NCBI GenBank assembly: GCA_043800555.1
Contig: JAZDMX010000003.1
Coordinates: 240,033-304,032 of the forward strand
Reading direction: 5' to 3'
Origin: Candidatus Omnitrophota bacterium
GTDB taxonomy: Bacteria > Omnitrophota > Gorgyraeia > Gygaellales > Profunditerraquicolaceae
DNA: 64,000 bases
Positions 48,371 through 61,120 of this stretch are shown one piece after another. The first letter of the stretch is position 1; each line of letters starts with the position of its first letter. The translations under genes and the position numbers were made by a program. The notes below the pieces were generated by a model. It saw only the letters and a list, made by a program, of their open reading frames with translations. It was not told where the DNA came from and searched no databases.

Positions 48371-49806
48371 AATATGAACCAGTCATAGGCCTGGAAGTCC
48401 ATTTGCATTTAAATACAAAAACCAAGGCTTTCTGCGGATGCCCTACGGATTTTGGAAAAGAGCCAAATTCGCAAACCTGCCCTGTTTGCTTAGGCCTTCC
48501 CGGTTCTTTGCCGGTTTACAATCAGCTTGCCCTGGAGTATGCTATAAGAGTCGCTCTTTCCTTAAGCTGCCAGGTGCGGGAGTATACTAAATTTGACCGT
48601 AAGAATTATTTCTATCCTGACCTGCCCAAGAATTATCAAATTTCGCAATACGATCTTCCTTTGTCTTCTTGCGGTTATCTTGATATCGAACTAAATGGCC
48701 TGGTCAAGCGTATCGGCATAACGCGCGTGCATATGGAAGAAGACGCGGGGAAGCTTATCCATCAGGATAATTGTAGCTTCTTAGATTTTAACCGCGCGGG
48801 CGTCCCGCTTTTAGAGATTGTAAGCGAGCCGGATATGAATTCTCCGGAAGAAGCCTACGAGTATTTATCCAGCCTGAAAAGCACTATTCAATACCTTGAT
48901 GTTTCGGATTGCGATATGGAGAAAGGTTCGCTGCGTTGCGATGCCAATATCTCATTAAGGCCGGCAGGAGAAAAAACTCTCGGGGTAAAAACAGAATTAA
49001 AGAATATGAATTCATTCAAGGGGGTTAAAGACGCTTTAAGTTATGAAATCAGCCGCCAGGGGCAAATACTGGATTCCGGCAAGCAGCTTACGCAGGAAAC
49101 GCGGCTTTGGGATGCTAAGGCCCAGGAAACAGTTTCGATGCGCACTAAAGAGGGGGCCAAGGATTACCGTTATTTTCCGGAGCCGGATTTACCTCCTTTT
49201 GTGATCAAAGAGGATAAAATCGCGGAAATCGGTAAAAGCCTACCCGAATTGCCAAAAGCAAAAACGCGCCGTTTCATTGAAGAATACGGTTTATCCGGAT
49301 ATGACGCTAAGGCCCTGGCTAGTTCCAGGGCTGTTAGTGAATTTAGCGAAGAGGCGATGAAGAAATACCCGGATACAAATAAGAAACCGGTAGCCAATTG
49401 GATAATCGGGCCCCTGGCTGCTTTGGCATCCGGGCATAATTGCCAGGCCCATGAACTGAAGATTTCGCCCGCTAACCTTATCGGGCTGATTGAATTAGTT
49501 GAAAAGGAACAGGTTATTTCTCATCTTGCCGGAAAAGCTGTTTTGGAAGAAATGCATAAGACCGGGCAAGCGGCCCGGGAAATAATCGAAGAAAAAAACC
49601 TGGCCCAGGTTTCCGATTCAGCCAGCCTAAATAGCGTCATTGAAGAAGCAATCAAAGAAAACCCCAAGTCGGTTTCCGACTTTAAAGCCGGCAAGGCTAA
49701 CGCGGTTATGTTCCTGGTAGGCCAGGCAATGCGTAAAAGCTCCGGCAAGGCAAACCCTAAGGCCTTGCAAGAGCTGATAAAGAAAAGGCTGGAAAGTGCG
49801 CAATAA
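48367..49806 (+). CDS. gatB: Asp-tRNA(Asn)/Glu-tRNA(Gln) amidotransferase subunit B
   Basis: MKYEPVIGLEVH aligns with the canonical GatB N-terminus (ATGA overlap with gatA); an in-frame ATG at 48343 is an alternative start. Confidence 0.93.
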   Translation: MKYEPVIGLEVHLHLNTKTKAFCGCPTDFGKEPNSQTCPVCLGLPGSLPVYNQLALEYAIRVALSLSCQVREYTKFDRKNYFYPDLPKNYQISQYDLPLSSCGYLDIELNGLVKRIGITRVHMEEDAGKLIHQDNCSFLDFNRAGVPLLEIVSEPDMNSPEEAYEYLSSLKSTIQYLDVSDCDMEKGSLRCDANISLRPAGEKTLGVKTELKNMNSFKGVKDALSYEISRQGQILDSGKQLTQETRLWDAKAQETVSMRTKEGAKDYRYFPEPDLPPFVIKEDKIAEIGKSLPELPKAKTRRFIEEYGLSGYDAKALASSRAVSEFSEEAMKKYPDTNKKPVANWIIGPLAALASGHNCQAHELKISPANLIGLIELVEKEQVISHLAGKAVLEEMHKTGQAAREIIEEKNLAQVSDSASLNSVIEEAIKENPKSVSDFKAGKANAVMFLVGQAMRKSSGKANPKALQELIKKRLESAQ

Positions 49807-51016
49807 ACTGATTTTTTCGTCAGCCCTGGTAATTTTACTTTTCGGCTCGGCATCATTGGCAATTTCTTTTGAGCGCAATAAACGGGACGATCTATACCGG
49901 CAAGTTGAGATCTTTTCGGATGTCCTGGCGATAGTGGATTCCGAGTATGTTGATGAAGTAAAGCCAAAAGACGAGATCTATGGCGCGCTAAAAGGGATGG
50001 TTTCATCTTTAGACCCGCATAGCCAGTTTATGGATCCGCAGGCTTATAATGAATTAAAAGAAGATACCGAAGGAAAATTTGGCGGCCTGGGAATTGAAAT
50101 TTCCGTTAGAAACGGAGGGCTCGTCATAATTAGCCCCCTAGAAGGCACTCCTGCCTGGAAAGCAGGGCTTAAGCCCGGGGATAAAATTGTTAAGATCAAC
50201 GCTGTTTCAACTAGCGGCATTGGCTTGGATGAGGCAATGAGAAAACTGCGCGGTAATCCGAAAGAAGCAGTCAGCCTTACCGTATCAAGGGGGCCCGGGA
50301 AAAAGCTTCTGGAATTTAAGATTACGCGCGCGATTATTAAAATCAACGATATAAAGCAAGCAAAAATATTAGAAGACGGGATCGGCTATATCCAGATTGT
50401 AGAATTCCGGGAGTCTACTCCTAAGGATTTCAATGTTGCCATTGAAAAATTGTCCGGGCTTGGGATAAAAGCGTTGATACTGGATTTACGCAATAACCCG
50501 GGCGGTTTGATGGAGAGCGCCCTGGAGATAACCGGAAAATTCATACCCGAAGGAAAATTAATTGTTTCCTCTAAAGGCCGGAAGCAAAATCAAAACCTTG
50601 AGTTTAAGTCAGAAGATAAGCATCCGCTCCTTAAGCTGCCTCTGGCAATTTTAATTAACGCGGGATCTGCTTCCGGAAGCGAAATTATTGCCGCGGCCTT
50701 GCAAGATTACAAGCGGGCGTTAATATTGGGGGAAAAGTCATTTGGCAAGGGTTCGATTCAGACGGTTATCCCTTTAAGCGACGGTTCAGCCCTAAGGCTG
50801 ACTACCAGTAAATATTTTACTCCCCTGGGAAAGGGGATCGACGGCAAAGGGGTATCTCCGGATGTCCTTATAGGCAATCCGGCTGATGATGAGGAAAAAG
50901 AAATTATCGAAGGGCCCGGGTTGGGCCAGGAGCCTGATAAAGGCAAGAAAGCGCCGGATTACAAGTCAGACCCCGCGGTAATGGCCGCGGTAAATTTATT
51001 AAAAACAAAACAATGA
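49796..51016 (+). CDS. ctpA: S41 family carboxyl-terminal processing protease
   Basis: 406 aa; PDZ domain; catalytic region GSASGSEI...K; GTG start overlapping gatB. Confidence 0.85.
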   Translation: MRNKLIFSSALVILLFGSASLAISFERNKRDDLYRQVEIFSDVLAIVDSEYVDEVKPKDEIYGALKGMVSSLDPHSQFMDPQAYNELKEDTEGKFGGLGIEISVRNGGLVIISPLEGTPAWKAGLKPGDKIVKINAVSTSGIGLDEAMRKLRGNPKEAVSLTVSRGPGKKLLEFKITRAIIKINDIKQAKILEDGIGYIQIVEFRESTPKDFNVAIEKLSGLGIKALILDLRNNPGGLMESALEITGKFIPEGKLIVSSKGRKQNQNLEFKSEDKHPLLKLPLAILINAGSASGSEIIAAALQDYKRALILGEKSFGKGSIQTVIPLSDGSALRLTTSKYFTPLGKGIDGKGVSPDVLIGNPADDEEKEIIEGPGLGQEPDKGKKAPDYKSDPAVMAAVNLLKTKQ

Positions 51017-51777
51017 AGAGAATTATAGGCCTAATCTTGATTTTGATTTTGGCGATGGCTGTGGTTTCCGTATTTACGCCCAAGCCCAGGAAAGCCATGA
51101 AGGCGCGCCCGAAGGCCATTAAGGGCAAAATTGCCATTGTTTTGGATGATTGGGGCTATAACCTGAATGATTTACAGCTTAGCGACGGGTTAAGCTATCC
51201 GTTTACTGCCGCGGTTTTGCCGGAAGCAACCCACACCGGGGAGGTTTCCAGGCGGCTGCATTCCCGGGGGCGCGAAATTATCCTGCATCTTCCTATGGAG
51301 CCGGAGGTGGCAAACGGCCTGGAGAAGAATACAATTATGGTTTATATGGATAAGGATGATATCTTGAGGATCCTGGACCGGGATTTAGCCAATGTTGTTT
51401 ATGCTAAAGGGGTATCCAACCATATGGGTTCAAAAGCGACTTGCGACGCAAAGACTATGGCGGTAATCTTCGGTGAACTGAAAAAACGGCACCTCTTCTT
51501 TTTAGACAGTTTTGTCACATCCAAAACCGTTTGCCGGGAACTGGCGCGAAAGCTGAAACTGGTTTCATACAGGCGGGATGTATTCTTGGACAACATAGAA
51601 GAGAAGGGGTATATTAAAAAACAGATCCTTATATTGAAAAATAAGGCTAAAGCGCATGGATTCGCCGTGGGGATAGGCCATGACCGCCAGATTACCTTGG
51701 AAGTCCTGAAGGAGGTTATGCCTAAGCTGGCCAAAGAAGGTTACGAATTCGTGTTTTTATCGGAGCTGAAAGAATGA
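51013..51777 (+). CDS. divergent polysaccharide deacetylase family protein (YibQ-like)
   Basis: 254 aa; N-terminal TM; IAIVLDDWGYN motif. Confidence 0.75.
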   Translation: MKRIIGLILILILAMAVVSVFTPKPRKAMKARPKAIKGKIAIVLDDWGYNLNDLQLSDGLSYPFTAAVLPEATHTGEVSRRLHSRGREIILHLPMEPEVANGLEKNTIMVYMDKDDILRILDRDLANVVYAKGVSNHMGSKATCDAKTMAVIFGELKKRHLFFLDSFVTSKTVCRELARKLKLVSYRRDVFLDNIEEKGYIKKQILILKNKAKAHGFAVGIGHDRQITLEVLKEVMPKLAKEGYEFVFLSELKE

Positions 51778-51859
51778 TTTTCGATTTGCCAGGGGAGTTT
51801 ATCCTTGATAACGGAAGCATCCGAAACGCCGCAGGCTCACCAGGCATAGGAGCCCGGCG

Positions 51860-52837
51860 ATGATAGTTTTAGGCATAGAGACATCCTGCGATGAGACCTC
51901 GGCGGCAGTAGTTGAAGATGGCAGGAAAATCTTAGCTAATTCCGTTGCCTCAAGCCTTGAATTCCATAAGAAATACGGGGGGGTTGTCCCCGAGATAGCT
52001 TCCCGTATGCAGATGGAAACAATTACCGGCATTACGGAGAGCGCCGTAAAGAAATCAAAGATACGCTTAAAGGATATTGATTTAATCAGCGTAACTAACG
52101 GCCCGGGGCTTATCGGCTCATTATTGGTAGGAGTATCATTCGCTAAATCCTTGAGCCTGTGCCTGGAGAAGCCGCTGTTGGGAGTCAACCATGTGCATAG
52201 CCATTTTTACGCTAGTTTTCTTTCCGGGAAAAAGATAAAATTGCCTTTTACGGCTTTAGTCGTTTCCGGCGGGCATACGAATTTATATTATGTCCGGGAT
52301 TTTGATAAGATTGAATTGCTTGGCCAAACCCAGGATGATGCCTGCGGAGAGGCCTTTGATAAAGCGGCTAAGATCCTGGGGCTGGGATATCCCGGCGGCC
52401 CGGCGATCGAGAAAATAGCGGAAACAGGCGATCCCGGGAAAATAAAATTTAAATGCTCGGGGACAAAAAATGAGTTGGATTTCAGCTTTAGCGGGATAAA
52501 AACCGCGGTTTTATATTATTCCCGGGATAACCGGGCATCTCCAATCAGGGATATCGCCGCTTCCTTCCAGGAAACGGTCATAGACGCCCTTATTAAAAAG
52601 TCTTTGTTAGCCTGTAAAATTAAGAAAACAAACAGGCTGGTTATCGGAGGCGGGGTTGTGGCGAACAGGCGTTTGAGAGAGAAATTCTATCAAGCTGGCC
52701 AAGGAGCAGGCCTGGATTGTTATTTCCCTCAAATTACGCTCTGCATGGATAATGCCGCGATGGTCGCGGGGTTGGGGTATCAGTTGTTTAAAAAAGGATA
52801 CCGGTCGGATTTAGGTATGGCCATAGGATTAAGTTAA
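51860..52837 (+). CDS. tsaD: tRNA N6-adenosine threonylcarbamoyltransferase TsaD
   Basis: 325 aa; MIVLGIETSCDETSAAV; HxxxH metal motif (HVHSHFYA). Confidence 0.9.
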   Translation: MIVLGIETSCDETSAAVVEDGRKILANSVASSLEFHKKYGGVVPEIASRMQMETITGITESAVKKSKIRLKDIDLISVTNGPGLIGSLLVGVSFAKSLSLCLEKPLLGVNHVHSHFYASFLSGKKIKLPFTALVVSGGHTNLYYVRDFDKIELLGQTQDDACGEAFDKAAKILGLGYPGGPAIEKIAETGDPGKIKFKCSGTKNELDFSFSGIKTAVLYYSRDNRASPIRDIAASFQETVIDALIKKSLLACKIKKTNRLVIGGGVVANRRLREKFYQAGQGAGLDCYFPQITLCMDNAAMVAGLGYQLFKKGYRSDLGMAIGLS

Positions 52838-52848
52838 GGGAGGCAAGC

Positions 52849-53301
52849 ATGCTCACGGATAACCAGATAATCTTACGGTTGGTATTGACTGTTATTTTAA
52901 GCGGTTTAATCGGGTTCGAGAGGCAGTCTCACGGTAGGACCGCAGGGCTACGCACTCATATACTGGTTGCTTTAGGATCCTGTCTTATAATGTTGACATC
53001 TATCCATGTTTTTGATATATATAAAGAAATAACCAAGCTTGACCCGGCGAGGATTGCCGCCGGAGTAATTACCGGTATCGGTTTCCTGGGCGCAGGGACC
53101 ATTATCCGCGAACAAGAAGGGGTAAGGGGCTTAACTACGGCAGCCAGCCTTTGGGTGATCGCCGGAATCGGCCTTGCCTGCGGATGCGGTTTCTTAAACG
53201 CTGCCATTTACGCCACGGTTTTGGCCCTGGTAGTCCTTTTTTTGTTAAGGCATATCGAGTTGCTGGTTTTTAGCGAAAACAGGGAAAAGCGTAAAAACTA
53301 G
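52849..53301 (+). CDS. mgtC: MgtC/SapB family membrane protein
   Basis: 150 aa; LGFERQ...GLRTH motif. Confidence 0.8.
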   Translation: MLTDNQIILRLVLTVILSGLIGFERQSHGRTAGLRTHILVALGSCLIMLTSIHVFDIYKEITKLDPARIAAGVITGIGFLGAGTIIREQEGVRGLTTAASLWVIAGIGLACGCGFLNAAIYATVLALVVLFLLRHIELLVFSENREKRKN

Positions 53302-53331
53302 GCGGATTACACAGATTACAGGAGGTGAAAT

Positions 53332-53835
53332 ATGGCTTTTAAAAAGAAACTGGAAGAAAAGGTTTTGGATGTTGATGCCTCCATGCAGGGGACTTTAAGT
53401 TTTAAGGACGCGGTGAATTTGCGCATTAATGGAAAATTCGAAGGGACACTGGAGACTAAGGGGAATTTGACCGTTGGCCCGGCCGCCGTGGTTAACGCGG
53501 ATATAATCGGAGATAATATTATTATCGGAGGCAGGGCCAAGGGAAGAATTACGGCAAAAGAAAGGTTGACCATTTTACCTACGGCAATTGTAGAGGGGAA
53601 TATTTTTCCGGCGAAGTTAAATATTGCCGAAGGGGCTATTTTAGAAGGCCGCTGCTATATGCTGCATGACTTTTTGAATGCCGAGGAGTTATCAAGGTAC
53701 CTGGAAGTGGACCTTAATTCTGTTATGGAATGGGCCAGTTCCGGCAAAGTCCCGGGCTATAAAGAAGGCAACGACTGGAAGTTCGAAAGAAAGGCGATTG
53801 ATTCCTGGGTGGCGTCGGGAAAAATAGATAAATAG
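53332..53835 (+). CDS. bactofilin (polymer-forming cytoskeletal, DUF583) fused to a C-terminal excisionase-type helix-turn-helix (HTH_17-like) domain
   Basis: 167 aa; beta-helical repeat region VGPAAVVNADIIGDNIIIGGRAKGRITAKERLTILPTAIVEGNI...; C-terminal EELSRYLEVDLNSVMEWASSGKVPGYKEGNDWKFERKAIDSWV matches the HTH_17 pattern. Confidence 0.7.
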   Translation: MAFKKKLEEKVLDVDASMQGTLSFKDAVNLRINGKFEGTLETKGNLTVGPAAVVNADIIGDNIIIGGRAKGRITAKERLTILPTAIVEGNIFPAKLNIAEGAILEGRCYMLHDFLNAEELSRYLEVDLNSVMEWASSGKVPGYKEGNDWKFERKAIDSWVASGKIDK

Positions 53836-53845
53836 GAATTAACCT

Positions 53846-54157
53846 ATGGCGGAAGATAAACTTTTAACGGTCAGAGAAGTTTCGGTGTTGCTGCGTGTTT
53901 CGGAAAAAGAGGTTATGGGCCTGGCTGAAACAGGCGTGATCCCGGCGTATAAGGTCGGGGGAGTTTACATAAGGTTTAAGAAAGAGCAGGTTTTAAGCTA
54001 CCAGAGGTCCTATCGGCCGTTAAGCGTTAAAACAGATTCCGGCCCCAAGAAAAGCCTTTTTTTCGATAACCTAAGCGATTTTTTTTATTTCAATGATTTT
54101 TATATATTGGCGATCACCCTTATGGTTTTATTGCTTTTGATAATCCTGCGGGGTTAA
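53846..54157 (+). CDS. excisionase-type HTH (HTH_17-like) protein with C-terminal transmembrane anchor
   Basis: 103 aa; LLTVREVSVLLRVSEKEVMGLAETGVIPAYKVGGVYIRFKKEQV; C-terminal hydrophobic FYILAITLMVLLLLIIL. Confidence 0.6.
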   Translation: MAEDKLLTVREVSVLLRVSEKEVMGLAETGVIPAYKVGGVYIRFKKEQVLSYQRSYRPLSVKTDSGPKKSLFFDNLSDFFYFNDFYILAITLMVLLLLIILRG

Positions 54158-54169
54158 ATTATTAAAATA

Positions 54170-54853
54170 ATGCCTTCGAGATCCGGTTTTTGTGATTTAG
54201 GTTTTGCCAAGGTGGACATTAACAGGAAAAAACGCCGTGGGTTTGCTGAAGTAATCTATTGCCCGGGCAAAACACGGGAACATCTCAAAAGCATTTCCCG
54301 CCAGTTGATAAAAAACAAACAGGACCTTTTGCTTACCCGTTTAGAGAGGCAGGTTTACGATTACCTTAAGAAGGAGATCCCCGGTTTAAAATATAATGCT
54401 TTGGCAAAAACCGCTTTCCTGGCAGCTAAAAAAACCGCTCTTTGCAAAAAAGGCCTGGTTTTAGTCATATCGGCGGGCACAGCCGACCTTCCGGTAGCCG
54501 AGGAGGCAGTGGTGACCCTTGAAATAATGGGCAACAAGGTAGAACGGCTTTATGATGTCGGCGTAGCCGGAGTGCACCGGGTTATGCGCCACGAACCGCT
54601 TTTAAGGAAAGCTAAGGTAATTATCGTGGTAGCCGGGATGGAAGGCGCGCTAGCCAGCTTAGTGAGTGGCTTGGTAAGGGCCCCGGTTATTGCCGTTCCG
54701 ACCAGTTGCGGATACGGCTCTAGCTTTCGAGGGTTATCGGCGTTATTAGCTATGCTAAACAGCTGTTCTCCGGGGATAGCTACGGTCAATATCGATAATG
54801 GATTTGGCGCCGGGTATTTTGCCAGCTTGGTAAATAATCAAATATATGGCTAA
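54170..54853 (+). CDS. larB: nickel-pincer cofactor biosynthesis protein LarB (PurE-like NaAD carboxylase/hydrolase)
   Basis: 227 aa; SAGTADLPVAEEA...ERLYDVGVAGVHR...VVAGMEGAL...IAVPTSCGYG...LNSCSPGIATVNIDNGFGA aligns closely with LarB. Confidence 0.85.
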   Translation: MPSRSGFCDLGFAKVDINRKKRRGFAEVIYCPGKTREHLKSISRQLIKNKQDLLLTRLERQVYDYLKKEIPGLKYNALAKTAFLAAKKTALCKKGLVLVISAGTADLPVAEEAVVTLEIMGNKVERLYDVGVAGVHRVMRHEPLLRKAKVIIVVAGMEGALASLVSGLVRAPVIAVPTSCGYGSSFRGLSALLAMLNSCSPGIATVNIDNGFGAGYFASLVNNQIYG

Positions 54854-55271
54854 TAGAAAAATGCAAGAAAAGATAAATTTAAAGGAAGCTGTAAAGTTTC
54901 ACGGGCATTTGGGCCCTTATTTGGTTTTAGGGATGCTTGCCGGAAACCTGGCATTAAGAAAGGCCGGAGCCAATAAACATTTTGGCTTAAAAGTTTTGGT
55001 TTACGGTGCTGACAAAAGGCCGAAATCCTGCCTTATTGACGGTTTGCAATTATCTACCGGGGCTACTTACGGCAAAGGGAACATTCAAAAGCGCCCGGGC
55101 AAAGATATTAAAATAATAATCAAGAATTTAAAAAGCGGTAAAGAAGTTGTCATTACCCTGAATGAGCAATTAAGGGTAAAATTATCTGCCCTAAAAGGGC
55201 ACAGCGAGTCGGAAAGGTTCGCTAAGTGGCTATTAAGGTCTGATTTCCGGAAAATACTTGAATTAAAATGA
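54846..55271 (+). CDS. FmdE/FwdE family protein (formylmethanofuran dehydrogenase subunit E-like domain)
   Basis: 141 aa; FHGHLGPYLVLG motif (FHGHxCPGxxxG in FmdE). Confidence 0.6.
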   Translation: MANRKMQEKINLKEAVKFHGHLGPYLVLGMLAGNLALRKAGANKHFGLKVLVYGADKRPKSCLIDGLQLSTGATYGKGNIQKRPGKDIKIIIKNLKSGKEVVITLNEQLRVKLSALKGHSESERFAKWLLRSDFRKILELK

Positions 55272-55323
55272 ATCTAGCCGGGGTTTAGAGGCTTCCGGCT
55301 ACAGCAAACGGGGGTATGCAACT

Positions 55324-56661
55324 ATGGCTTTATCGGGCTTAGATATTTACAAGCTGTTGCCGAAAACAAATTGCCGCGAATGCGGTTTCGCTACCTGCCT
55401 TGCGTTTGCCATGCAATTGGCCAAGAAGGCGGTCGGCATAGATAAATGCCCTTATCTGACTTCTGAAGTCAGGGAGAAATTGGAGGCCCAGTCTCAGCCG
55501 CCGATAAAATTGATTACTATCGGTTCCGGGGAAGCGCGCCTTGAGATTGGCAACGAAAGCGTTATGTTCAGGCACGAGGAGAAATTTTACCGCCCTGCCG
55601 GAGTGGGCTTTATCATCCCGGACAATATTTCCGACGCGGAGATTCAATCCCGGGTTGATAAGATCAATAATTTGAAATTTGAAAGGATCGGCCAGGAGCT
55701 TAAGGCCAATTTAATCGCTATTCGCCAAAATGCTTCCTCCGAGAGGTTTATTGCCGCGGTAAAGCTTGTGTCCGCCGCCACCTCTTTGGGTTTAGTCTTA
55801 ATGAGTGATGACGCGCAAGGCCTGAAAGGGGCTTTGGAGCATTTGAAAGGCAGGAGGCCTTTGATCTATCACGCTACCGAAGAAAATCTTGCTGCCTTTG
55901 CGCAGTTAGCCGGAGAATATAAAGTGCCGTTGGCCGCGCAGGCCAAAGGCCTGGAGGAGTTAAGCGCATTGACCGTTGAATTGGCCAAACGGGGGGCCGG
56001 GGATTTAGTTATAGAGACCGGCAATAAGCCGGTATCCGGGAAAATCTGGGATTTGACGCAAAGCCGCAGGCTTGCCCTAAAGAAATCCAACCGCTCCCTC
56101 GGGTATCCGTCTATAGTCGTTATCGATAACAGCGATCCTTACGAAGAAATACAGGAGGCGGCCACTTATATATCGAAATACGCCGGTATTGTCCTGGTTA
56201 AAAGCATCGAAACCTGGGCAGCCTTATCGCTTTTAACATTACGGCAAAACATTTATACCGACCCGCAAAAGCCGCTGCAAATTGAGCCTAAGCTTTATCC
56301 GGTAGGCCAGGTCAGCGATAAATCGCCGGTATTGATTACTACGAATTTCTCCCTTTCGTATTACACTGTCCTGGGTGAAGTTGAGGCCAGTAAAATACCT
56401 TCTTACATTATCAGCGTAGATACCGAGGGGATGTCGGTATTGACCGCTTGGGCAGCCGAAAAATTTACTCCCCATAAAATTACCGAGTCAATCGGAAAAT
56501 TCGGGGTTAAAGACGCGGTTTCGCATAGGCGCCTGGTTATCCCGGGTTATGTGGCGGTAATGAGCGGGGAATTGCAAGATGTCTCCGGCTTTGAGGTTAT
56601 CGTCGGCCCTAAAGAAGCGGCGGGTTTGCCCGTATTCCTTAAAAACCTCCGATATGAATAA
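55324..56661 (+). CDS. acsC: corrinoid iron-sulfur protein large subunit (AcsC / CdhE gamma subunit)
   Basis: 445 aa; N-terminal [4Fe-4S] motif CRECGFATCLAFAMQLAKK...CPY as in Moorella AcsC. Confidence 0.9.
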   Translation: MALSGLDIYKLLPKTNCRECGFATCLAFAMQLAKKAVGIDKCPYLTSEVREKLEAQSQPPIKLITIGSGEARLEIGNESVMFRHEEKFYRPAGVGFIIPDNISDAEIQSRVDKINNLKFERIGQELKANLIAIRQNASSERFIAAVKLVSAATSLGLVLMSDDAQGLKGALEHLKGRRPLIYHATEENLAAFAQLAGEYKVPLAAQAKGLEELSALTVELAKRGAGDLVIETGNKPVSGKIWDLTQSRRLALKKSNRSLGYPSIVVIDNSDPYEEIQEAATYISKYAGIVLVKSIETWAALSLLTLRQNIYTDPQKPLQIEPKLYPVGQVSDKSPVLITTNFSLSYYTVLGEVEASKIPSYIISVDTEGMSVLTAWAAEKFTPHKITESIGKFGVKDAVSHRRLVIPGYVAVMSGELQDVSGFEVIVGPKEAAGLPVFLKNLRYE

Positions 56662-58552
56662 ATTTAAGGTTACTTTTTTGCCCGATAACAAAACCGTGGA
56701 AGTTGCCAGGGATACCACTATTTTGGCTGCTGCGGTTTCCTGCGGGGTGTTCATAAAGTCGGATTGCGCGGGAGACGGGGTTTGCGGCAGGTGCAAGGTT
56801 ATAGTGAAAAAAGGCGATTGCCTAAGCCATCCGACCGGCATAATAAGCGCCGAAGAGAGAAAGCGCCAGATACACTTAGCTTGCATTACTACGGTCCATA
56901 GCGATCTGGAGGTGGAAATTCCTTTAGAATCCAGGATAGAGCCGGCCTTAGCGGCCAAAGGCATTTATTCCGGCCCCGAAGACCTGGAGCAGGGAAAGAA
57001 TGCCGTAAACGATAAGGCCTTTAAGCACTCGCCTTTATCCACAAAATTATACCTTGAATTACCCGTCCCGGATTTAAATGATACTACTAGCGACCTGGAA
57101 CGCCTTTTCCGGGGTATCCGTAAGGCGCAGGGCCTGCCGGTTGTGCAAACAGGTTTAAGCAATATCCGGCAGCTGGGCGAATTATTGCGGGATTCCGGCT
57201 GGAAGGTGACCGTTACCCTGGGGAAAAGAAACGATACCCTGGAGGTTGTCCTGGTTGAACCGGGTAATACCTCCGGTAAGAATTTTGGCGTTTGTTTTGA
57301 TATCGGCACTACTACGATTTCCGGGCAACTGGTGGATTTGAATTCTAAGGAAGTCTTGGGGACAAAAGCGGCTTACAATAAACAGGCAAGTTTTGGTTCG
57401 GACGTAATCACGCGCATCATTTATTCGCGCCGGGAAGAAGGAATGGAAAGGCTGCATGAAGCGGTAACCGAAACAATGAACCAGATGATTAAAGAATTGA
57501 TTGCCGGGCATAATCTGGATTTAAACGACGTTACTTCTGTTGTCTGCGCCGGAAATACCACGATGATACATTTATTGCTCCGGCTGGACCCTACCTACAT
57601 AAGGAAAGAGCCCTATGTCCCGACGGCGAATTTCCTCCCGGTGTTGAGGTCTTCGGAGGCGGGGATAATTATTAATCCGCGCGGGCTGTTATCTTGCGTT
57701 CCCGGGGTATCCGGCTATGTGGGAGGAGATACCACCTCCGGGGTTTTATCCAGCGGATTATATAAGGAAAAACAGTTAAGCCTTTTAATCGATATCGGGA
57801 CCAACGGGGAAATCTGCCTTGGAAACAAGGATTTCCTGGTTGCCTGCGCCGCTTCAGCCGGCCCGGCATTCGAAGGAAGCGGGGTATGCTGCGGGATGCG
57901 CTCCTCAAGCGGGGCTATCCAGAAAGTTAAAATCGATCCCAAGGATTTTTCGGTTAGTTTTTCGACTATCGCAGGGGCACCTGCCCGCGGCATATGCGGT
58001 TCCGGCTATATCGATTTGATCGCCGCGATGCTTGAGTCCGGGGTTATGGATAAGAGCGGGAAAATTAAGCTGGATAATCATAAGCGAGTGCGCGACTCCG
58101 CTTCGGGCAAGGAATTTGTCCTGGTTTTTAAAGAAGATTCGGGTATCCCGGGGGACATAGTTATTAATGAAGCGGATATAGAAAACTTAAAGCGGGCGAA
58201 AGCGGCTATTTATTCCGCCGCATCCGTTTTGGTAAAACATATGGATTTAGGATTTAAGGAGATAGAGAGGGTTTTCATAGCCGGAGGATTCGGCACTTCT
58301 CTTAATATTGAAAGCGCCATAAAGATAGGGCTTCTGCCGGAACTGGAAAGAAAAAGGTTTATTTTTGTCGGTAACAGCGCTCTTGCCGGGGCCCGGCAGA
58401 TGCTTTTATCGGCAGAGGCGGCAAAAACAGCCGAAGAGATTGCCGCCAAGATTACCTATTTTGAATTGTCCGTCGATTCTTCCTATATGGATGAATATAT
58501 GGCGGCTTTGTTTTTTCCGCATACTGACTTAGAAAGGTTTTTGAATAAATAA
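56654..58552 (+). CDS. reductive activator of CoFeSP (RACo/AcsV): N-terminal 2Fe-2S ferredoxin domain plus ASKHA ATPase domain
   Basis: 632 aa from ATG 56654 (MNKFKVTF; overlaps the acsC stop); 2Fe-2S Cys cluster CAGDGVCGRCKV; the six-frame ORF extends upstream to 56579 without an RBS. Confidence 0.8.
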   Translation: MNKFKVTFLPDNKTVEVARDTTILAAAVSCGVFIKSDCAGDGVCGRCKVIVKKGDCLSHPTGIISAEERKRQIHLACITTVHSDLEVEIPLESRIEPALAAKGIYSGPEDLEQGKNAVNDKAFKHSPLSTKLYLELPVPDLNDTTSDLERLFRGIRKAQGLPVVQTGLSNIRQLGELLRDSGWKVTVTLGKRNDTLEVVLVEPGNTSGKNFGVCFDIGTTTISGQLVDLNSKEVLGTKAAYNKQASFGSDVITRIIYSRREEGMERLHEAVTETMNQMIKELIAGHNLDLNDVTSVVCAGNTTMIHLLLRLDPTYIRKEPYVPTANFLPVLRSSEAGIIINPRGLLSCVPGVSGYVGGDTTSGVLSSGLYKEKQLSLLIDIGTNGEICLGNKDFLVACAASAGPAFEGSGVCCGMRSSSGAIQKVKIDPKDFSVSFSTIAGAPARGICGSGYIDLIAAMLESGVMDKSGKIKLDNHKRVRDSASGKEFVLVFKEDSGIPGDIVINEADIENLKRAKAAIYSAASVLVKHMDLGFKEIERVFIAGGFGTSLNIESAIKIGLLPELERKRFIFVGNSALAGARQMLLSAEAAKTAEEIAAKITYFELSVDSSYMDEYMAALFFPHTDLERFLNK

Positions 58553-58618
58553 ATACCGCGCAAGGTTGATTCTGTGCCCGTCTTTTCTTTAATCGCCTGC
58601 GCTATGCGCCAAAATAAT

Positions 58619-59371
58619 ATGGGCCAAATAATAGCAATGGCGGGAAAAGGAGGCGTAGGTAAAACCACGATTGCCGGCCTTCTGGTGCGCCTGATCAAGG
58701 AAAAGAAACTCGGCTCGATCCTGGCTGTTGACGCCGATGCCAACAGTAATCTTGGCGAATCCTTGGGAGTCGAGGTAAAGGAGGATTTGGGGCGCATACT
58801 TGATGATATAGGCATAAACCCTGGGATCGTCCCGGTAAATATGGGAAAAGACGCCTTTATCGAATACCGCGCCCATTCGGCAATTATTGAAGCGGGCGGT
58901 TTTGACCTTTTGGCTATGGGTAAACCCGAAGGCCCGGGTTGTTATTGTTATCTGAATAATGCTTTACGCAATGTTATGGATAAATTAGTCAAAGGCTACG
59001 ACTTTGTGATTATTGACAATGAGGCCGGTTTAGAGCATTTAAGCCGCCGCACCAGCCGCCAGGTAGATGTAATGCTAGTTGTTACGGATCCTTCTGCCGC
59101 GGGCTTAAGGTCGGCTAAAAGAATATCCGGGCTTACGAAAGAATTAAATATCAAAGCCGCTAAAGAATTCTTGATCGTTAATCGTTCCAGCGGCAATATC
59201 CGCCCGGATATATTGGAGGGCTTGCGCCTGGAATGTTTGGGGTTTTTACCGATTGACCCGGAAATCGACAATTTAAGCAGGCAGGGCGCTTCCTTAATGA
59301 ATTTAGGCGATGATAACCTAACCTTGAACGCTTTAGGCAAATTAGGAGAAAAAATATGGCTTTGCAACTAG
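58619..59371 (+). CDS. cooC: CooC-type Ni-insertion ATPase (CODH/ACS maturation factor)
   Basis: P-loop AMAGKGGVGKTT; CxC motif (GCYCYL) of CooC; ATG 58619 chosen, with in-frame alternatives upstream at 58574 and 58604. Confidence 0.8.
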   Translation: MGQIIAMAGKGGVGKTTIAGLLVRLIKEKKLGSILAVDADANSNLGESLGVEVKEDLGRILDDIGINPGIVPVNMGKDAFIEYRAHSAIIEAGGFDLLAMGKPEGPGCYCYLNNALRNVMDKLVKGYDFVIIDNEAGLEHLSRRTSRQVDVMLVVTDPSAAGLRSAKRISGLTKELNIKAAKEFLIVNRSSGNIRPDILEGLRLECLGFLPIDPEIDNLSRQGASLMNLGDDNLTLNALGKLGEKIWLCN

Positions 59372-60297
59372 TGACGGAAAAATGGACAGGAGAGGTTTCG
59401 GCGGCGGCGATTGGCGCAACCAGCCAGGAAGGCGGAACGCGGGATCATTCGATAATAATCGGCGGGGAGAGGTCATTGCCTTGCTTATTCAATGAAGGCG
59501 CTATCCCAAATAAGCCCCGGATTGCCTTTGAAATAGCCGATATTGCGCCTAATGATTGGCCAGCTGAAGCCGCTAAGCCTTACGCTAAAGCGCTTAATGA
59601 CCCTTTGGAATGGGCGCAGATGTGTGTCCGGGATTTTAAGGCCCCGGCCTTATGCGTAAGATTATCAGGCGCTCATCCGGATTTCGGCGATAAAACCCCC
59701 GAAGAAGAGGCTTGCTTTATAAAAGGGCTCCTGGAGAAATTCGGAGTGCCTTTGATAATTTTAGGTTGCGGGGATGACGCTAAAGACAACCTGCTTCTTC
59801 CTGCGGTTTCCGAAGCAGCCAGGGGGGAGCGTTGTTTGATAGGTTCAGCGGTCCAGGATAATTATAGAACTATTGTCGCCAGCGTTTTGGCCGACGGGCA
59901 CAATGTTATCGCCGAAAGCCCCATAGATATCAATATCGCCAAGCAATTGAACATATTGATTTCGGATATGGGGCTGGCTTTGGAGCGCATTGTTATGAAC
60001 CCGACTATCGGGGCTTTGGGCTACGGCCTGGAATACGCGTATTCTATTATGGAGCGCGCCCGGCTGGCAGCGCTTGCCGGGGATAAAACCCTGGCTTGCC
60101 CGTTTATTTGCTTTGTGGGGCAGGAGTCATGGAGGGCCAAGGAAACTAAGGCGGAGGGTTTAGCCGACCAGGGGGTCATCTGGGAAACGCTTACGGCAAC
60201 CGCTTTAATCCAGGCAGGAGCGGATTTGTTGATTATGCGGCATCCTAAGGCGGTAGAGAAAGTAAGTAAATACATAGATAAGTTGTTTGAAGGATAG
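59356..60297 (+). CDS. acsD: corrinoid iron-sulfur protein small subunit (AcsD / CdhD delta subunit)
   Basis: 313 aa; aligns along its length with Moorella AcsD (LGNAEQ/IGSAVQ, SPLDINICKQLNIL/SPIDINIAKQLNIL, LLMRHP). Confidence 0.9.
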   Translation: MALQLVTEKWTGEVSAAAIGATSQEGGTRDHSIIIGGERSLPCLFNEGAIPNKPRIAFEIADIAPNDWPAEAAKPYAKALNDPLEWAQMCVRDFKAPALCVRLSGAHPDFGDKTPEEEACFIKGLLEKFGVPLIILGCGDDAKDNLLLPAVSEAARGERCLIGSAVQDNYRTIVASVLADGHNVIAESPIDINIAKQLNILISDMGLALERIVMNPTIGALGYGLEYAYSIMERARLAALAGDKTLACPFICFVGQESWRAKETKAEGLADQGVIWETLTATALIQAGADLLIMRHPKAVEKVSKYIDKLFEG

Positions 60298-60331
60298 CTC
60301 CTTTTGCTATCCGAAACCTAGGGGAGTTAAC

Positions 60332-61120
60332 TTGTTTATTATCGGTGAACTGATTAACGGAATGTATGCCAATGTCGCCAGGGCGATTAAAGAGCGCGAT
60401 AAGCCGGGAATCCAAAAATGCGCCTGGGAGCAGATTAAAAACGGCGCGGATGCCCTGGATATTAATTGCGGCCCGGCTTCCAAGCTGCCGCTTATTGATA
60501 TGGCTTGGCTGGTGGAAAGCGTGCAGGAGGTTACGGATAAGCCGCTATGCCTTGATTCAAGCAACCCGCAAGTTATTGAAGCCGGGTTAAAAGCGGCCAG
60601 GAACAAAACTATCATTAATTCCGTTACGGCGGACGCTGAAAAGCTGGATACGATCATTCCTTTGGCCAAAGAATACGGTTCGCTGCTTATCGGGATCACT
60701 ATTAATAAAAAGGGTGTCCCGCAAAATAAGGACCAAAGGCTGGAATTAGCGGCCGCGATTGTGGCTTCTTGCCTTGACAAAGATTTTCCGGTGGACAACC
60801 TTTATCTTGACCCGATACTATTGCCGGTTAATGTGGCCCAAGCGCAGTTAAAGGGTATTTTAGAGTCGATCCGGGATTTTAAGGTTATCTCCGAGCCGTC
60901 TCCTAAGACGACTTTGGGCTTAAGCAACGTATCGCAGGGGGCCAATTCCCGCGGCCTGATTAACCGCGAGTTTCTGGTTATGGCTATCGCCTATGGCCTG
61001 GATTCGGCTATATTGGACCCAAACGATAAAGGGCTTATGGACGCCTTGATTACCGCCGAGTTGATTTTAAACAAGAACATATACTGCGATTCATACTTAG
61101 AGGCATATAAAAAGAAATAA
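60332..61120 (+). CDS. acsE: methyltetrahydrofolate:corrinoid/iron-sulfur protein methyltransferase (AcsE, MeTr)
   Basis: 262 aa from TTG 60332 after RBS GGGGAG; LFIIGELINGM, LDINCGP, LCLDSSN, LYLDPILLPVNVAQ, TTLGLSNVSQG align with Moorella MeTr. Confidence 0.88.
   Translation: MFIIGELINGMYANVARAIKERDKPGIQKCAWEQIKNGADALDINCGPASKLPLIDMAWLVESVQEVTDKPLCLDSSNPQVIEAGLKAARNKTIINSVTADAEKLDTIIPLAKEYGSLLIGITINKKGVPQNKDQRLELAAAIVASCLDKDFPVDNLYLDPILLPVNVAQAQLKGILESIRDFKVISEPSPKTTLGLSNVSQGANSRGLINREFLVMAIAYGLDSAILDPNDKGLMDALITAELILNKNIYCDSYLEAYKKK

What the first reader, a model, noticed from the sequence alone, without database searches (positions are those of the whole stretch)
53332..54157. Bactofilin fused to an excisionase-type HTH DNA-binding domain, followed by a membrane-anchored HTH_17 protein: possible DNA-tethering cytoskeletal pair
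Bactofilins polymerise into membrane-associated filaments. They normally recruit DNA-segregation factors through adaptors, for example PadC-ParB in Myxococcus. Here the bactofilin core (DUF583 beta-helix) carries its own C-terminal HTH_17-like domain (...MEWASSGKVPGYKEGNDWKFERKAIDSWV). The next gene, 10 nt downstream, encodes a second HTH_17-like domain with a C-terminal TM helix. A filament with intrinsic DNA-binding capacity plus a membrane DNA anchor is not a described arrangement, as far as I recall.
Basis: partly seen in the sequence, partly recalled or inferred. Interest (0 to 1): 0.65.

Follow-up and report, generated by a model that had tools for sequence, protein, structure and literature searches.

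The report
Bactofilin–winged-helix fusion with membrane-anchored partner
Bacteria of the uncultivated phylum Omnitrophota carry a very strongly conserved gene pair, a filament-forming bactofilin fused to an excisionase-type winged-helix domain followed by a small membrane-anchored protein with the same kind of domain, which probably forms a membrane-bound platform for DNA or for each other, though actual DNA binding is unproven and the usual DNA-reading arginine is missing.

Summary
ORF 53332-53835 (167 aa) is Pfam Bactofilin (res 11-108, E 6.5e-24) plus HTH_17 (114-163, E 1.5e-9). ORF 53846-54157 (103 aa), 10 nt downstream, is HTH_17 plus a C-terminal TM helix.

It is not a one-off. There are 1765 90%-identity clusters, all Omnitrophota where a source names them, and at least 147 species genomes, including Ca. 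Velamenicoccus archaeovorus. The partner gene is adjacent in 80/80 loci. It is also adjacent in 4 of 5 divergent lineages whose other neighbours differ completely, so the pair is the conserved unit. The fusion is the best-conserved gene of its neighbourhood in 54/72 loci.

Bactofilin hallmarks are kept: a beta-helix fold, L/F at the polymerisation Phe position, and an N-terminal MAFKKK resembling the membrane-targeting consensus MFSKKKK.

DNA binding is not established. The fused domain is net acidic across the 80 orthologs and in 29 of the 31 wider family members aligned. The position of BldC's essential base-contacting Arg30 is Glu/Asp in 80/80 fusions and Asp/Glu in 73/80 partners. Basic wing residues are conserved.

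Best reading (about 0.42): a membrane-attached polymer displaying winged-helix domains that, with the tail-anchored partner, tethers DNA. The main rival is that the domains are protein-protein modules. Pipelines annotate both domains, but I found no paper describing the fusion. It is a new variant of a known kind.

The parts
53320..53327 (+). Shine-Dalgarno AGGAGGTG for the fusion gene
   Evidence: Read directly from the sequence. An AAGGAGG-type motif at the same distance is the only conserved upstream element in the orthologous loci printed.
53332..53835 (+). Bactofilin-HTH_17 fusion gene (167 aa)
   Evidence: ORF. Pfam Bactofilin plus HTH_17, both above the gathering score. 1765 homologous clusters, and the top 120 all carry PF04519+PF12728. 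AF2 pLDDT 84.9.
53332..53352 (+). N-terminal MAFKKKL peptide, a membrane-targeting-sequence-like motif
   Evidence: Conserved in 80 orthologs: F/L/I/M at position 3 and K/R at 4-5. Divergent relatives all begin with a hydrophobic residue followed by a basic cluster. The published global bactofilin MTS consensus is MFSKKKK, and F2, K4 and K7 are needed in BacA (PMC12448750). Membrane binding itself is inferred.
53362..53661 (+). Bactofilin beta-helix core (residues 11-110)
   Evidence: Pfam 84.5 bits. phmmer against BacA 2n3d and the Thermus bactofilin 6ria. Foldseek TM 0.84 to 2n3d. Position 104, which aligns with BacA F130 and TtBac F105, is L39/F38/I3 of 80. C108 and M110 are invariant.
53662..53670 (+). 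Very short linker (L-H-D) between the core and the winged helix
   Evidence: 4 residues between M110 and L115 in this clade, against 7-21 in 16 of the 18 divergent family members (alignment A1).
53671..53820 (+). C-terminal HTH_17 / excisionase-MerR-type winged helix (residues 114-163), net acidic
   Evidence: Pfam HTH_17 38.4 bits. TIGR01764 scores 25.8 bits, below its 28.8 cutoff. Foldseek to BldC 6ama gives rmsd 1.4 A over 49 residues. Net charge -3 here and mean -2.8 over 80 orthologs. The BldC Arg30 equivalent is E133, and it is E/D in 80/80.
53846..54157 (+). Partner gene: a tail-anchored HTH_17 protein (103 aa)
   Evidence: ORF. Pfam HTH_17 40 bits, and TIGR01764 35.4 bits against a 28.8 cutoff. 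494 homologous clusters; those that carry a source name are Omnitrophota/Omnitrophica. Adjacent to the fusion gene in 80/80 loci and in L081, L084, L085 and L086.
53861..54013 (+). Partner winged helix (residues 6-56) with a basic wing
   Evidence: AF2. Foldseek to BldC 6amk gives rmsd 1.1 A and TM 0.87-0.89. In the wing, R43 is 80/80 and K36, K45 and K46 are conserved. The Arg30 equivalent is D/E in 73/80.
54014..54055 (+). Variable, disordered linker of the partner (residues 57-70)
   Evidence: The wider block 57-78 has a mean column conservation of 0.37. pLDDT is below 50 for residues 59-69.
54056..54151 (+). Juxtamembrane aromatic motif DFFYFNDFY plus C-terminal transmembrane helix (residues 71-102)
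   Evidence: D78-Y86 is invariant in the 25-sequence alignment A2. Helices at 71-82 and 84-102. Hydropathy above 1.6 in 80/80, with 0-4 residues after the TM.
52849..53301 (+). Short MgtC-family membrane protein, a frequently linked upstream neighbour and possibly a third component
   Evidence: Pfam MgtC E 9.9e-41. Directly upstream in 79/80 loci and in the divergent locus L081. Absent in L084-L086, so it is not obligatory.

Best explanation
A two-protein, membrane-bound winged-helix platform built on a bactofilin polymer.

Shown:
- The fusion has a complete bactofilin beta-helix with a hydrophobic L/F at the polymerisation-interface position.
- It has an N-terminal MAFKKK peptide like the bactofilin membrane-targeting sequence.
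- It has an excisionase/MerR-type winged helix attached by a 4-residue linker.
- The co-directional gene 10 nt downstream encodes the same fold on a disordered tether, ending in a tail-anchor TM helix with essentially no extracytoplasmic part.
- The pair is conserved as a unit across Omnitrophota.

Inferred:
- The fusion polymerises on the inner face of the membrane.
- Bactofilin filaments are non-polar, with head-to-head and tail-to-tail contacts. The C-terminal winged helices would therefore be presented in twos at each tail-to-tail junction, roughly every two subunits.
- The tail-anchored partner sits in the same membrane patch.
- Together they hold chromosomal DNA at the membrane. Many weak, wing-mediated contacts would be made effective by multivalency.

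On this reading the module is a one-polypeptide equivalent of scaffold-plus-adaptor systems such as BacNOP-PadC-ParB or DivIVA-RacA, or of the Noc DNA-membrane tether. The DNA-binding step is the weakest link.
For: - Domains and folds.
- Polymerisation residue: BacA F130 and TtBac F105 both align with position 104, which is L39/F38/I3 of 80. F130R abolishes BacA assembly (PMC12448750).
- Membrane-targeting peptide: MAFKKK against the consensus MFSKKKK.
- Partner topology: the partner is tail-anchored with 0-4 residues outside in 80/80. Any function must therefore be cytoplasmic and membrane-proximal, not periplasmic like the usual bactofilin clients.
- Pair conserved as a unit: 80/80 syntenic loci, plus 4 of 5 divergent lineages with unrelated flanking genes.
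- Strong purifying selection on both domains alike. Column conservation is 0.79 for the core and 0.77 for the HTH. The fusion is the most conserved gene of its neighbourhood in 54/72 loci.
- Closest structures are DNA-bound architectural wHTH proteins, including the chromosome anchor RacA.
- Conserved basic residues around the wing. Fusion: K139, K144, K/R150, R153 (80/80), K154. Partner: K21, K36, R43 (80/80), K45, K46. W134 and S130 also match the phosphate-contacting W31 and T27 of BldC.
Against: - The fused wHTH is net acidic in all 80 orthologs (mean -2.8, range -5 to -1) and in 29 of 31 wider family members.
- Of BldC's five basic DNA-contact residues only one stays basic. The essential Arg30 position is E/D in 80/80 fusions and D/E in 73/80 partners, and the H46 position is D/N/E.
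- No conserved operator or repeat lies upstream. The GATTACA direct repeat in this window is not conserved.
- The 4-residue linker may place the wHTH on the C-terminal polymerisation face. The model's pTM of 0.63 leaves the domain orientation undefined.
- Nothing here demonstrates polymerisation, membrane binding or DNA binding.
Confidence: 0.42

Rival explanations
1. The winged helices are protein-protein modules and do not bind DNA. The acidic wHTH on the bactofilin docks onto the tail-anchored partner, through its basic wing or its wHTH, or back onto the bactofilin core. The partner would then be the membrane receptor, nucleator or client of the polymer, as RodZ's HTH is for MreB.
For: - Acidic net charge, and loss of the Arg30, K26, K33 and H46 equivalents in the fusion.
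- The partner's wing is strongly basic, mean +3.7.
- Strict co-occurrence of the two genes.
- This fold is used for protein binding elsewhere: CbpM-CbpA (3ucs) and the TniQ N-terminal domains appear among the structural neighbours.
- In B. subtilis the HTH protein BacR binds the bactofilins BacE/F. The predicted interface lies near its HTH, and binding lowers its DNA affinity (PMC13649987).
- That RodZ's HTH binds MreB is from my own knowledge, not checked here.
Against: - The fusion already has its own membrane-targeting-like peptide.
- The partner's linker charge is not consistently complementary (range -4 to +4).
- Most characterised HTH_17 domains bind DNA.
- Conserved wing lysines and arginines in both proteins are what a minor-groove binder would keep.
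Confidence: 0.3
2. A BacR-like regulatory switch. The wHTH is a transcription factor whose access to DNA is controlled by polymerisation and membrane sequestration of the bactofilin. The tail-anchored protein would be a membrane-sequestered co-regulator. The output is gene regulation, not physical tethering.
For: - BacR (DUF4004) is encoded in an operon with bactofilins. It binds DNA, is recruited to the membrane by BacE/F and relocates to the nucleoid on cell-wall stress (PMC13649987).
- Its HTH motif '...SYGQLYRWKR' looks MerR/HTH_17-like.
- The Omnitrophota fusion would be the covalent version of that pairing.
Against: - A covalently attached domain with a 4-residue linker cannot leave the polymer.
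- No conserved operator lies upstream of the operon.
- Pfam DUF4004 does not hit either protein at E<=1.
- The recognition-helix Arg of the 'YRW' motif is Glu here.
- The extreme conservation and strong SD fit an abundant structural protein better than a regulator.
Confidence: 0.15
3. A mobile-element or defence gene: an excisionase (recombination directionality factor) or a MADS MAD1-like component that happens to carry a beta-helix.
For: Weak generic hits to NCBIfam antiphage_MADS1 (44.3 bits), PADLOC mad1 (18-19 bits) and PHROG excisionase families.
Against: - All these scores are far below the curated cutoffs (MADS1 cutoff 80).
- No integrase or defence genes flank the pair.
- The locus sits in a phylum-wide syntenic housekeeping block: ctpA, a YibQ-like divergent polysaccharide deacetylase (my reading of the ORF, not HMM-checked), tsaD, mgtC, the pair, larB, acsC.
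- No match in 50,697 phage records, and no fusion in 72,556 plasmids.
Confidence: 0.02

Closest known systems
Canonical bactofilins (C. crescentus BacA, T. thermophilus BacA; Pfam PF04519)
   Same: A full-length beta-helix domain, a hydrophobic residue at the F130/F105 polymerisation position, and a short N-terminal hydrophobic-plus-lysine peptide like the MTS.
   Different: Canonical bactofilins end in a short disordered tail. They recruit clients, usually bitopic cell-wall enzymes, non-covalently. Here a folded 50-residue winged helix is fused 4 residues after the core.
B. subtilis BacR (YhbD, DUF4004) with bactofilins BacE/BacF (PMC13649987)
   Same: An HTH protein genetically linked to bactofilins and physically bound by them at the membrane. 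The HTH motif is of the '..YRW' MerR-like type.
   Different: BacR is a separate soluble protein with a DUF4004 C-terminal region. It binds DNA reversibly and regulates its own operon. The Omnitrophota domain is covalently fused, is HTH_17 and not DUF4004 (no Pfam hit), is acidic, and comes with a tail-anchored second wHTH.
M. xanthus BacNOP-PadC-ParB/ParA (PMC5703909)
   Same: A bactofilin scaffold connected to chromosomal DNA, positioning it in the cell.
   Different: There the link is indirect, through the adaptor PadC and the ParB-parS complex. Neither protein of the pair matches a ParB, ParA or PadC family in the Pfam or NCBIfam scans.
B. subtilis RacA-DivIVA and Noc (DNA-membrane or DNA-pole tethers)
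   Same: RacA's DNA-binding domain is a MerR-like wHTH and is among the structural neighbours of both domains (5i44). The concept is the same: a DNA-binding domain coupled to a membrane-associated scaffold or amphipathic peptide. The RacA-DivIVA and Noc mechanisms are from my own knowledge.
   Different: RacA uses an Arg equivalent to BldC R30 for a YpG contact (PMC5859096). Here that position is Glu/Asp. The scaffold is a bactofilin, not DivIVA, and there is no ParB/CTPase fold as in Noc.
BldC / Xis / RdfS small wHTH proteins (HTH_17, TIGR01764)
   Same: The same alpha1-alpha2-beta-hairpin-alpha3 fold, with rmsd 1.1-1.5 A. These proteins act as head-to-tail multimers on DNA, a mode that a polymeric scaffold could mimic.
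   Different: They are free, basic proteins. BldC's aligned stretch counts about +6 by hand from the alignment. They have Arg/Lys/His DNA contacts that are largely replaced here. There is also no recombinase context.
RodZ-MreB
   Same: A membrane-anchored protein whose cytoplasmic HTH binds a cytoskeletal polymer and not DNA. This is the model for the protein-protein rival. It is from my own knowledge.
   Different: RodZ has an XRE-type HTH, an N-in bitopic topology with a periplasmic domain, and it partners actin-like MreB.

Membership tests
Bactofilin (PF04519) | Match to the family HMM above the curated threshold over the whole domain | tested here: met
   84.5 bits against a cutoff of 27.9, profile positions 2-97 of 98.
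Bactofilin (PF04519) | Right-handed beta-helix fold like BacA | tested here: met
   The AF2 model has beta-strands over 11-105 with pLDDT about 90 or more. Foldseek to 2n3d gives TM 0.84 and rmsd 2.2 A, and 6rib gives TM 0.76.
Bactofilin (PF04519) | Hydrophobic residue at the end-on polymerisation interface (BacA F130 / TtBac F105) | tested here: met
   Both Phe residues align with position 104. That position is L39/F38/I3 in 80 orthologs.
Bactofilin (PF04519) | N-terminal membrane-targeting sequence (consensus MFSKKKK) | tested here: inconclusive
   MAFKKKL is conserved and resembles the consensus (PMC12448750). It is shifted by one residue, and membrane binding is untested.
Bactofilin (PF04519) | Nucleotide-independent self-assembly into filaments | not testable with these tools
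   Needs purified protein and EM. A multimer prediction was not possible.
HTH_17 / excisionase-type winged helix (PF12728, TIGR01764) | HMM match above the curated threshold | tested here: met
   PF12728 scores 38.4 bits (fusion) and 40.0 bits (partner) against a cutoff of 27. For TIGR01764 the partner scores 35.4 against 28.8 and passes. The fusion scores 25.8 and falls just below.
HTH_17 / excisionase-type winged helix (PF12728, TIGR01764) | alpha1-alpha2-beta1-beta2-alpha3 MerR-like wHTH fold | tested here: met
   DSSP of the models. rmsd 1.1-1.5 A to BldC, Xis and RdfS.
HTH_17 / excisionase-type winged helix (PF12728, TIGR01764) | Basic DNA-contact residues on the recognition helix and wing (as in BldC: K26, R30, K33, H46, R47, R48) | tested here: not met
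   Fusion equivalents are N/S, E/D (80/80), N/S, D/N/E, W and K/R. Partner equivalents are K, D/E (73/80), E, Y, L and R (with contacts from PMC5859096). At least one DNA-binding relative, the terminase 7lxs, also lacks the Arg, so this lowers but does not exclude DNA binding.
HTH_17 / excisionase-type winged helix (PF12728, TIGR01764) | DNA binding | not testable with these tools
   No coordinates, electrostatics or binding assay were available.
Excisionase / recombination directionality factor | Association with an integrase or mobile element | tested here: not met
   The pair sits in a conserved housekeeping synteny with no integrase. There is no phage match and no plasmid fusion.
MADS MAD1 (NF047737) / BldC (NF033787) / MamR (NF040990) | Score at or above the NCBIfam equivalog/subfamily cutoff | tested here: not met
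   MADS1 scores 44.3 and 37.0 against a cutoff of 80. BldC scores 13.7 and 17.6 against 77. MamR scores 14.3 against 100. PADLOC mad1 scores 18-19 bits.
BacR / DUF4004 | DUF4004 domain | tested here: not met
   No Pfam DUF4004 hit at E<=1 for either protein.
Tail-anchored membrane protein (partner) | A single TM helix at the extreme C-terminus with the N-terminal domain cytoplasmic | tested here: met
   The 19-residue hydropathy window exceeds 1.6 in 80/80, with 0-4 residues after it. The AF2 helix spans 84-102 of 103. Topology is inferred.

The most novel reading that the evidence does not exclude
The pair is a minimal, self-contained chromosome-membrane attachment or organisation system for ultra-small Omnitrophota cells. 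A cytoskeletal polymer would bind DNA directly through a built-in array of winged helices. A tail-anchored second winged helix would clamp the DNA to the bilayer. This would be the first bactofilin that contacts DNA without an adaptor.
Probability: 0.2. Interest if true: 0.8.

Novelty: new variant of a known kind. Interest (0 to 1): 0.55.

Why it matters
- Known bactofilins act as scaffolds that recruit separate client proteins.
- A phylum-wide bactofilin with a covalently attached winged helix and an obligate tail-anchored winged-helix partner would be a new mode of client coupling. This holds whether the target turns out to be DNA or the partner protein.
- The module is more conserved than the universal tRNA-modification enzyme TsaD encoded two genes upstream. 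It is therefore likely central to the cell biology of Omnitrophota, an uncultivated phylum of nanobacteria for which the Omnitrophota papers searched here mention no cytoskeletal component.
- Together with B. subtilis BacR, it supports a more general link between bactofilins and MerR-like HTH proteins.
- The proteins are small and lend themselves to heterologous tests.

Tried and rejected
1. Conserved operator upstream. The GATTACA-CA-GATTACA direct repeat at 53305-53319 is not conserved in the orthologous loci examined; only the SD is.
2. Promoter and terminator scans give counts at shuffle expectation, so they give no information on the operon.
3. Recent duplication of the two HTH domains is rejected. 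BLASTP finds no alignment, and family HMMs cross-hit only at E about 1e-3.
5. The afdb50 fold library was unavailable.
6. An apparent fusion on a Leptospira borgpetersenii plasmid (H1, 83% query coverage) is a plain bactofilin. The tblastn alignment runs through its stop codon.
7. The defence, excisionase and MamR readings all score below cutoff and lack the right context.
8. Expression evidence for the Velamenicoccus ortholog: no mention of it in the three held supplementary files of PMC12583861, one of which was truncated when stored.
9. The partner-less divergent variant P0291/P0139, with an HTH of net +3 and an integrase nearby, belongs to a tiny family (3 hits). It gives no broader taxonomic spread.
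10. No second bactofilin or related HTH lies in the 64-kb window.
Full report
**What is there**

The two ORFs are exactly as described. Gene 1 (53332-53835, +, 167 aa) follows a strong AGGAGGTG Shine-Dalgarno. Gene 2 (53846-54157, +, 103 aa) starts 10 nt after its stop.

Pfam assigns gene 1 a full-length Bactofilin domain (residues 11-108, 84.5 bits, E 6.5e-24) and an HTH_17 domain (114-163, 38.4 bits, E 1.5e-9). Gene 2 has HTH_17 (6-56, 40 bits). All are above the gathering scores. NCBIfam's 'excise' domain model passes for gene 2 and falls just short for gene 1. The hits to MADS1, BldC and MamR are far below their cutoffs.

phmmer links the core to the solved bactofilins 2n3d and 6ria. An AlphaFold2 model (pLDDT 84.9) shows a beta-helix followed directly by a helix-helix-hairpin-helix domain. 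Foldseek matches the core to BacA (TM 0.84). It matches the C-terminal domain to BldC, RdfS, Pukovnik Xis and RacA (rmsd about 1.4-2 A), and also to the protein-binding MerR-like CbpM.

The partner model has a winged helix (6-56), a disordered tether (57-70), a juxtamembrane helix (71-82) and a C-terminal TM helix (84-102). Its closest structures are BldC (rmsd 1.1 A), Xis, RacA and the TniQ N-terminal domains.

**Distribution**

- The window protein is 100% identical to a protein of a Candidatus Omnitrophota MAG. The search returned 1765 clusters. The top 120 are 79-100% identical, almost all exactly 167 aa, and all carry both Pfam domains. Pipelines name them 'polymer-forming cytoskeletal protein' or 'excisionase family DNA binding protein'.
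- A scan of one genome per species found 147 genomes with a relative. Of the best 80, most are labelled Omnitrophota or Omnitrophica. About ten carry other labels ('uncultured Planctomycetales', 'Margulisiibacteriota', 'bacterium') but share the same synteny, which I read as mislabelling. The set includes the complete genome of Ca. Velamenicoccus archaeovorus at 58% identity.
- In a library clustered at 50% identity, about 25 representatives have the full architecture, out of 9498 hits at E<=0.001, most of them plain bactofilins. The fusion is therefore rare among bactofilins but common in this phylum.
- The only taxon name recovered for the divergent members is 'PVC group bacterium'. A partner-less variant has just three relatives, and the only one that carries a taxon name is again Omnitrophica.
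- There is no phage match. The single plasmid hit that seemed to cover the HTH is a plain Leptospira bactofilin.

**The gene pair is the unit**

tblastn of the window's neighbours against the 80 loci shows a phylum-wide syntenic block. It runs ctpA, a YibQ-like divergent polysaccharide deacetylase (my reading of the ORF, not HMM-checked), tsaD, mgtC, the fusion, the partner, larB, (fmdE), acsC and a 657-aa ORF that I take to be RACo. The partner is adjacent in 80/80 and MgtC in 79/80.

Five divergent lineages were examined. The flanking genes are completely different in each: BatD/TPR/PDZ, an intein protein/GreA, DnaE/a hybrid kinase, and SPOR/TPR-PDZ. A 94-114-aa HTH_17 gene with a C-terminal TM helix still follows the fusion in four of the five. 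MgtC is kept in one of them.

The fusion is the most conserved gene of its neighbourhood in 54 of 72 loci. Its mean identity is 73.8%, against 61.8% for TsaD and 53.4% for the partner. Core and HTH are equally constrained, at 0.79 and 0.77.

**Bactofilin hallmarks**

- The polymerisation-critical Phe of BacA (F130) and of the Thermus protein (F105) both align with position 104. That position is Leu or Phe in 77 of 80 orthologs and Ile in the rest.
- The N-terminus MAFKKKLEEK is conserved. Divergent relatives all start with a hydrophobic residue followed by a basic cluster. This resembles the published membrane-targeting consensus MFSKKKK, in which F2, K4 and K7 are needed and membrane binding and polymerisation reinforce each other (PMC12448750).
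- The core-to-HTH linker is 4 residues in this clade but 7-21 residues in 16 of the 18 divergent members. The short linker raises the question of whether the winged helix crowds the tail-to-tail interface. The model's pTM of 0.63 does not settle this.

**Is the winged helix a DNA binder?**

- The fused domain is net acidic in all 80 orthologs (mean -2.8, range -5 to -1) and in 29 of the 31 wider family members aligned. The partner's HTH is about +1, with an acidic recognition helix (-2.5) and a basic wing (+3.7).
- In BldC the DNA contacts are K26, T27, T29, R30, W31, K33, H46, R47 and R48. R30A and H46E abolish binding, and RacA uses the equivalent Arg (PMC5859096).
- Mapped onto these proteins, the R30 position is Glu/Asp in 80/80 fusions and Asp/Glu in 73/80 partners. 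K26 and K33 become Asn/Ser in the fusion, and H46 becomes Asp/Asn/Glu.
- Against that, W134, S130, K139, K144, K/R150, R153 (80/80) and K154 are conserved in the fusion. K21, K36, R43 (80/80), K45 and K46 are conserved in the partner. A DNA-binding terminase HTH also lacks the Arg. Wing or backbone contacts remain plausible, especially when multiplied on a polymer.
- No conserved operator lies upstream. The local GATTACA repeat is not conserved.

**Mechanism**

I favour, at about 0.42, a membrane-attached bactofilin polymer. The N-terminal peptide would sit on the membrane. Because bactofilin filaments are non-polar, winged-helix pairs would sit at the tail-to-tail junctions. With the tail-anchored partner, this forms a multivalent platform that holds DNA at the membrane. 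A partner with no periplasmic part fits a cytoplasmic task and not the usual cell-wall-enzyme client role.

The main rival, at about 0.30, is that the winged helices mediate protein-protein contacts between the two proteins or with the core. Precedents are CbpM, TniQ and B. subtilis BacR, whose HTH region is predicted to contact BacE/F and whose DNA binding drops on bactofilin binding (PMC13649987). RodZ-MreB is a further precedent from my own knowledge.

A BacR-like regulatory switch scores about 0.15. It is disfavoured by the covalent 4-residue tether and the lack of an operator. Mobile-element and defence readings are excluded by context and scores.

**Novelty**

Full-text searches for bactofilin with helix-turn-helix, Omnitrophota or excisionase returned no description of this fusion. 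The two main Omnitrophota genomics papers do not mention bactofilins or cytoskeletal genes.

Databases annotate both domains automatically, so the architecture is visible, but I found no study of it. I rate it a new variant of a known kind: a bactofilin scaffold with a built-in, and a partnered, winged helix. It is of moderate to good interest, and the key claim of DNA binding is still open.

Noticed in passing
window 49796-58552; loci L001-L080: A ten-gene co-directional block is syntenic across most of the 80 Omnitrophota species loci: ctpA, a YibQ-like deacetylase (my reading), tsaD, mgtC, the fusion, the partner, larB, (fmdE), acsC and a 657-aa ORF. This holds although the functions look unrelated. 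FmdE is present in only 33/80.
   Followed up: partly
window 52849-53301 (MgtC); L081 4535-4972: A short MgtC-family membrane protein (150 aa, membrane domain only) lies directly upstream of the fusion in 79/80 loci. It is also there in one divergent lineage with otherwise different flanks. It may be a third component of the module.
   Followed up: partly
window 54170-61120: LarB (nickel-pincer cofactor biosynthesis, 285.7 bits) and an FmdE-like protein sit immediately upstream of ORFs that look like Wood-Ljungdahl genes. By my reading of the translations these are AcsC-like, RACo-like, CooC-like, AcsD-like and AcsE-like; they were not HMM-checked. The LarB link to this cluster is conserved in 70/80 loci.
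   Followed up: no
window 53305-53319: A direct repeat GATTACA-CA-GATTACA lies just upstream of the SD of the fusion gene. It is not conserved in the orthologous loci examined, so it is probably chance.
   Followed up: yes
loci L002, L003, L007 (upstream of the fusion gene): Several orthologous loci have GC-rich hairpins in the mgtC-fusion intergenic spacer, for example CCCGCGC...GCGCGGG in L002 and GATACCGCAC...GTGCGGTATC in L003. The window lacks these. They may be terminators, attenuators or REP-like elements.
   Followed up: no
protein P0153 (253 aa): A close relative of this bactofilin core (47% identity over residues 8-123) carries a C-terminal PilZ domain in place of the HTH. The same core is therefore used with alternative C-terminal effector domains.
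   Followed up: partly
proteins P0188 (231 aa) and P0233 (135 aa): These proteins are made of two or three tandem HTH_17 domains, and those domains are among the closest relatives of the fused HTH. Their origin and context are unknown.
   Followed up: no
window 53653-53661 (residues C108-M110 of the fusion): Cys108 and Met110, at the C-terminal cap of the beta-helix just before the HTH, are invariant in 80/80 orthologs. Their role is unexplained.
   Followed up: no
window 54077-54103 (partner residues 78-86): The aromatic-acidic juxtamembrane motif D-F-F-Y-F-N-D-F-Y is invariant in 25 aligned partners and recognisable in divergent ones (DLFYFNDFY, DFWRYNGFY, DFWKYSDIY). It is more conserved than the TM helix itself. 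Its function is unknown.
   Followed up: partly
window 43168-46512 (- strand): A 1114-aa ORF on the opposite strand interrupts an otherwise co-directional housekeeping region. It was not analysed.
   Followed up: no
locus L087 (P0291): A partner-less bactofilin-HTH_17 variant has a basic HTH (net +3, Lys at the Arg30 position). It sits near a phage-type integrase and a DUF1016 gene, so it may be a mobile, genuinely DNA-binding offshoot.
   Followed up: partly
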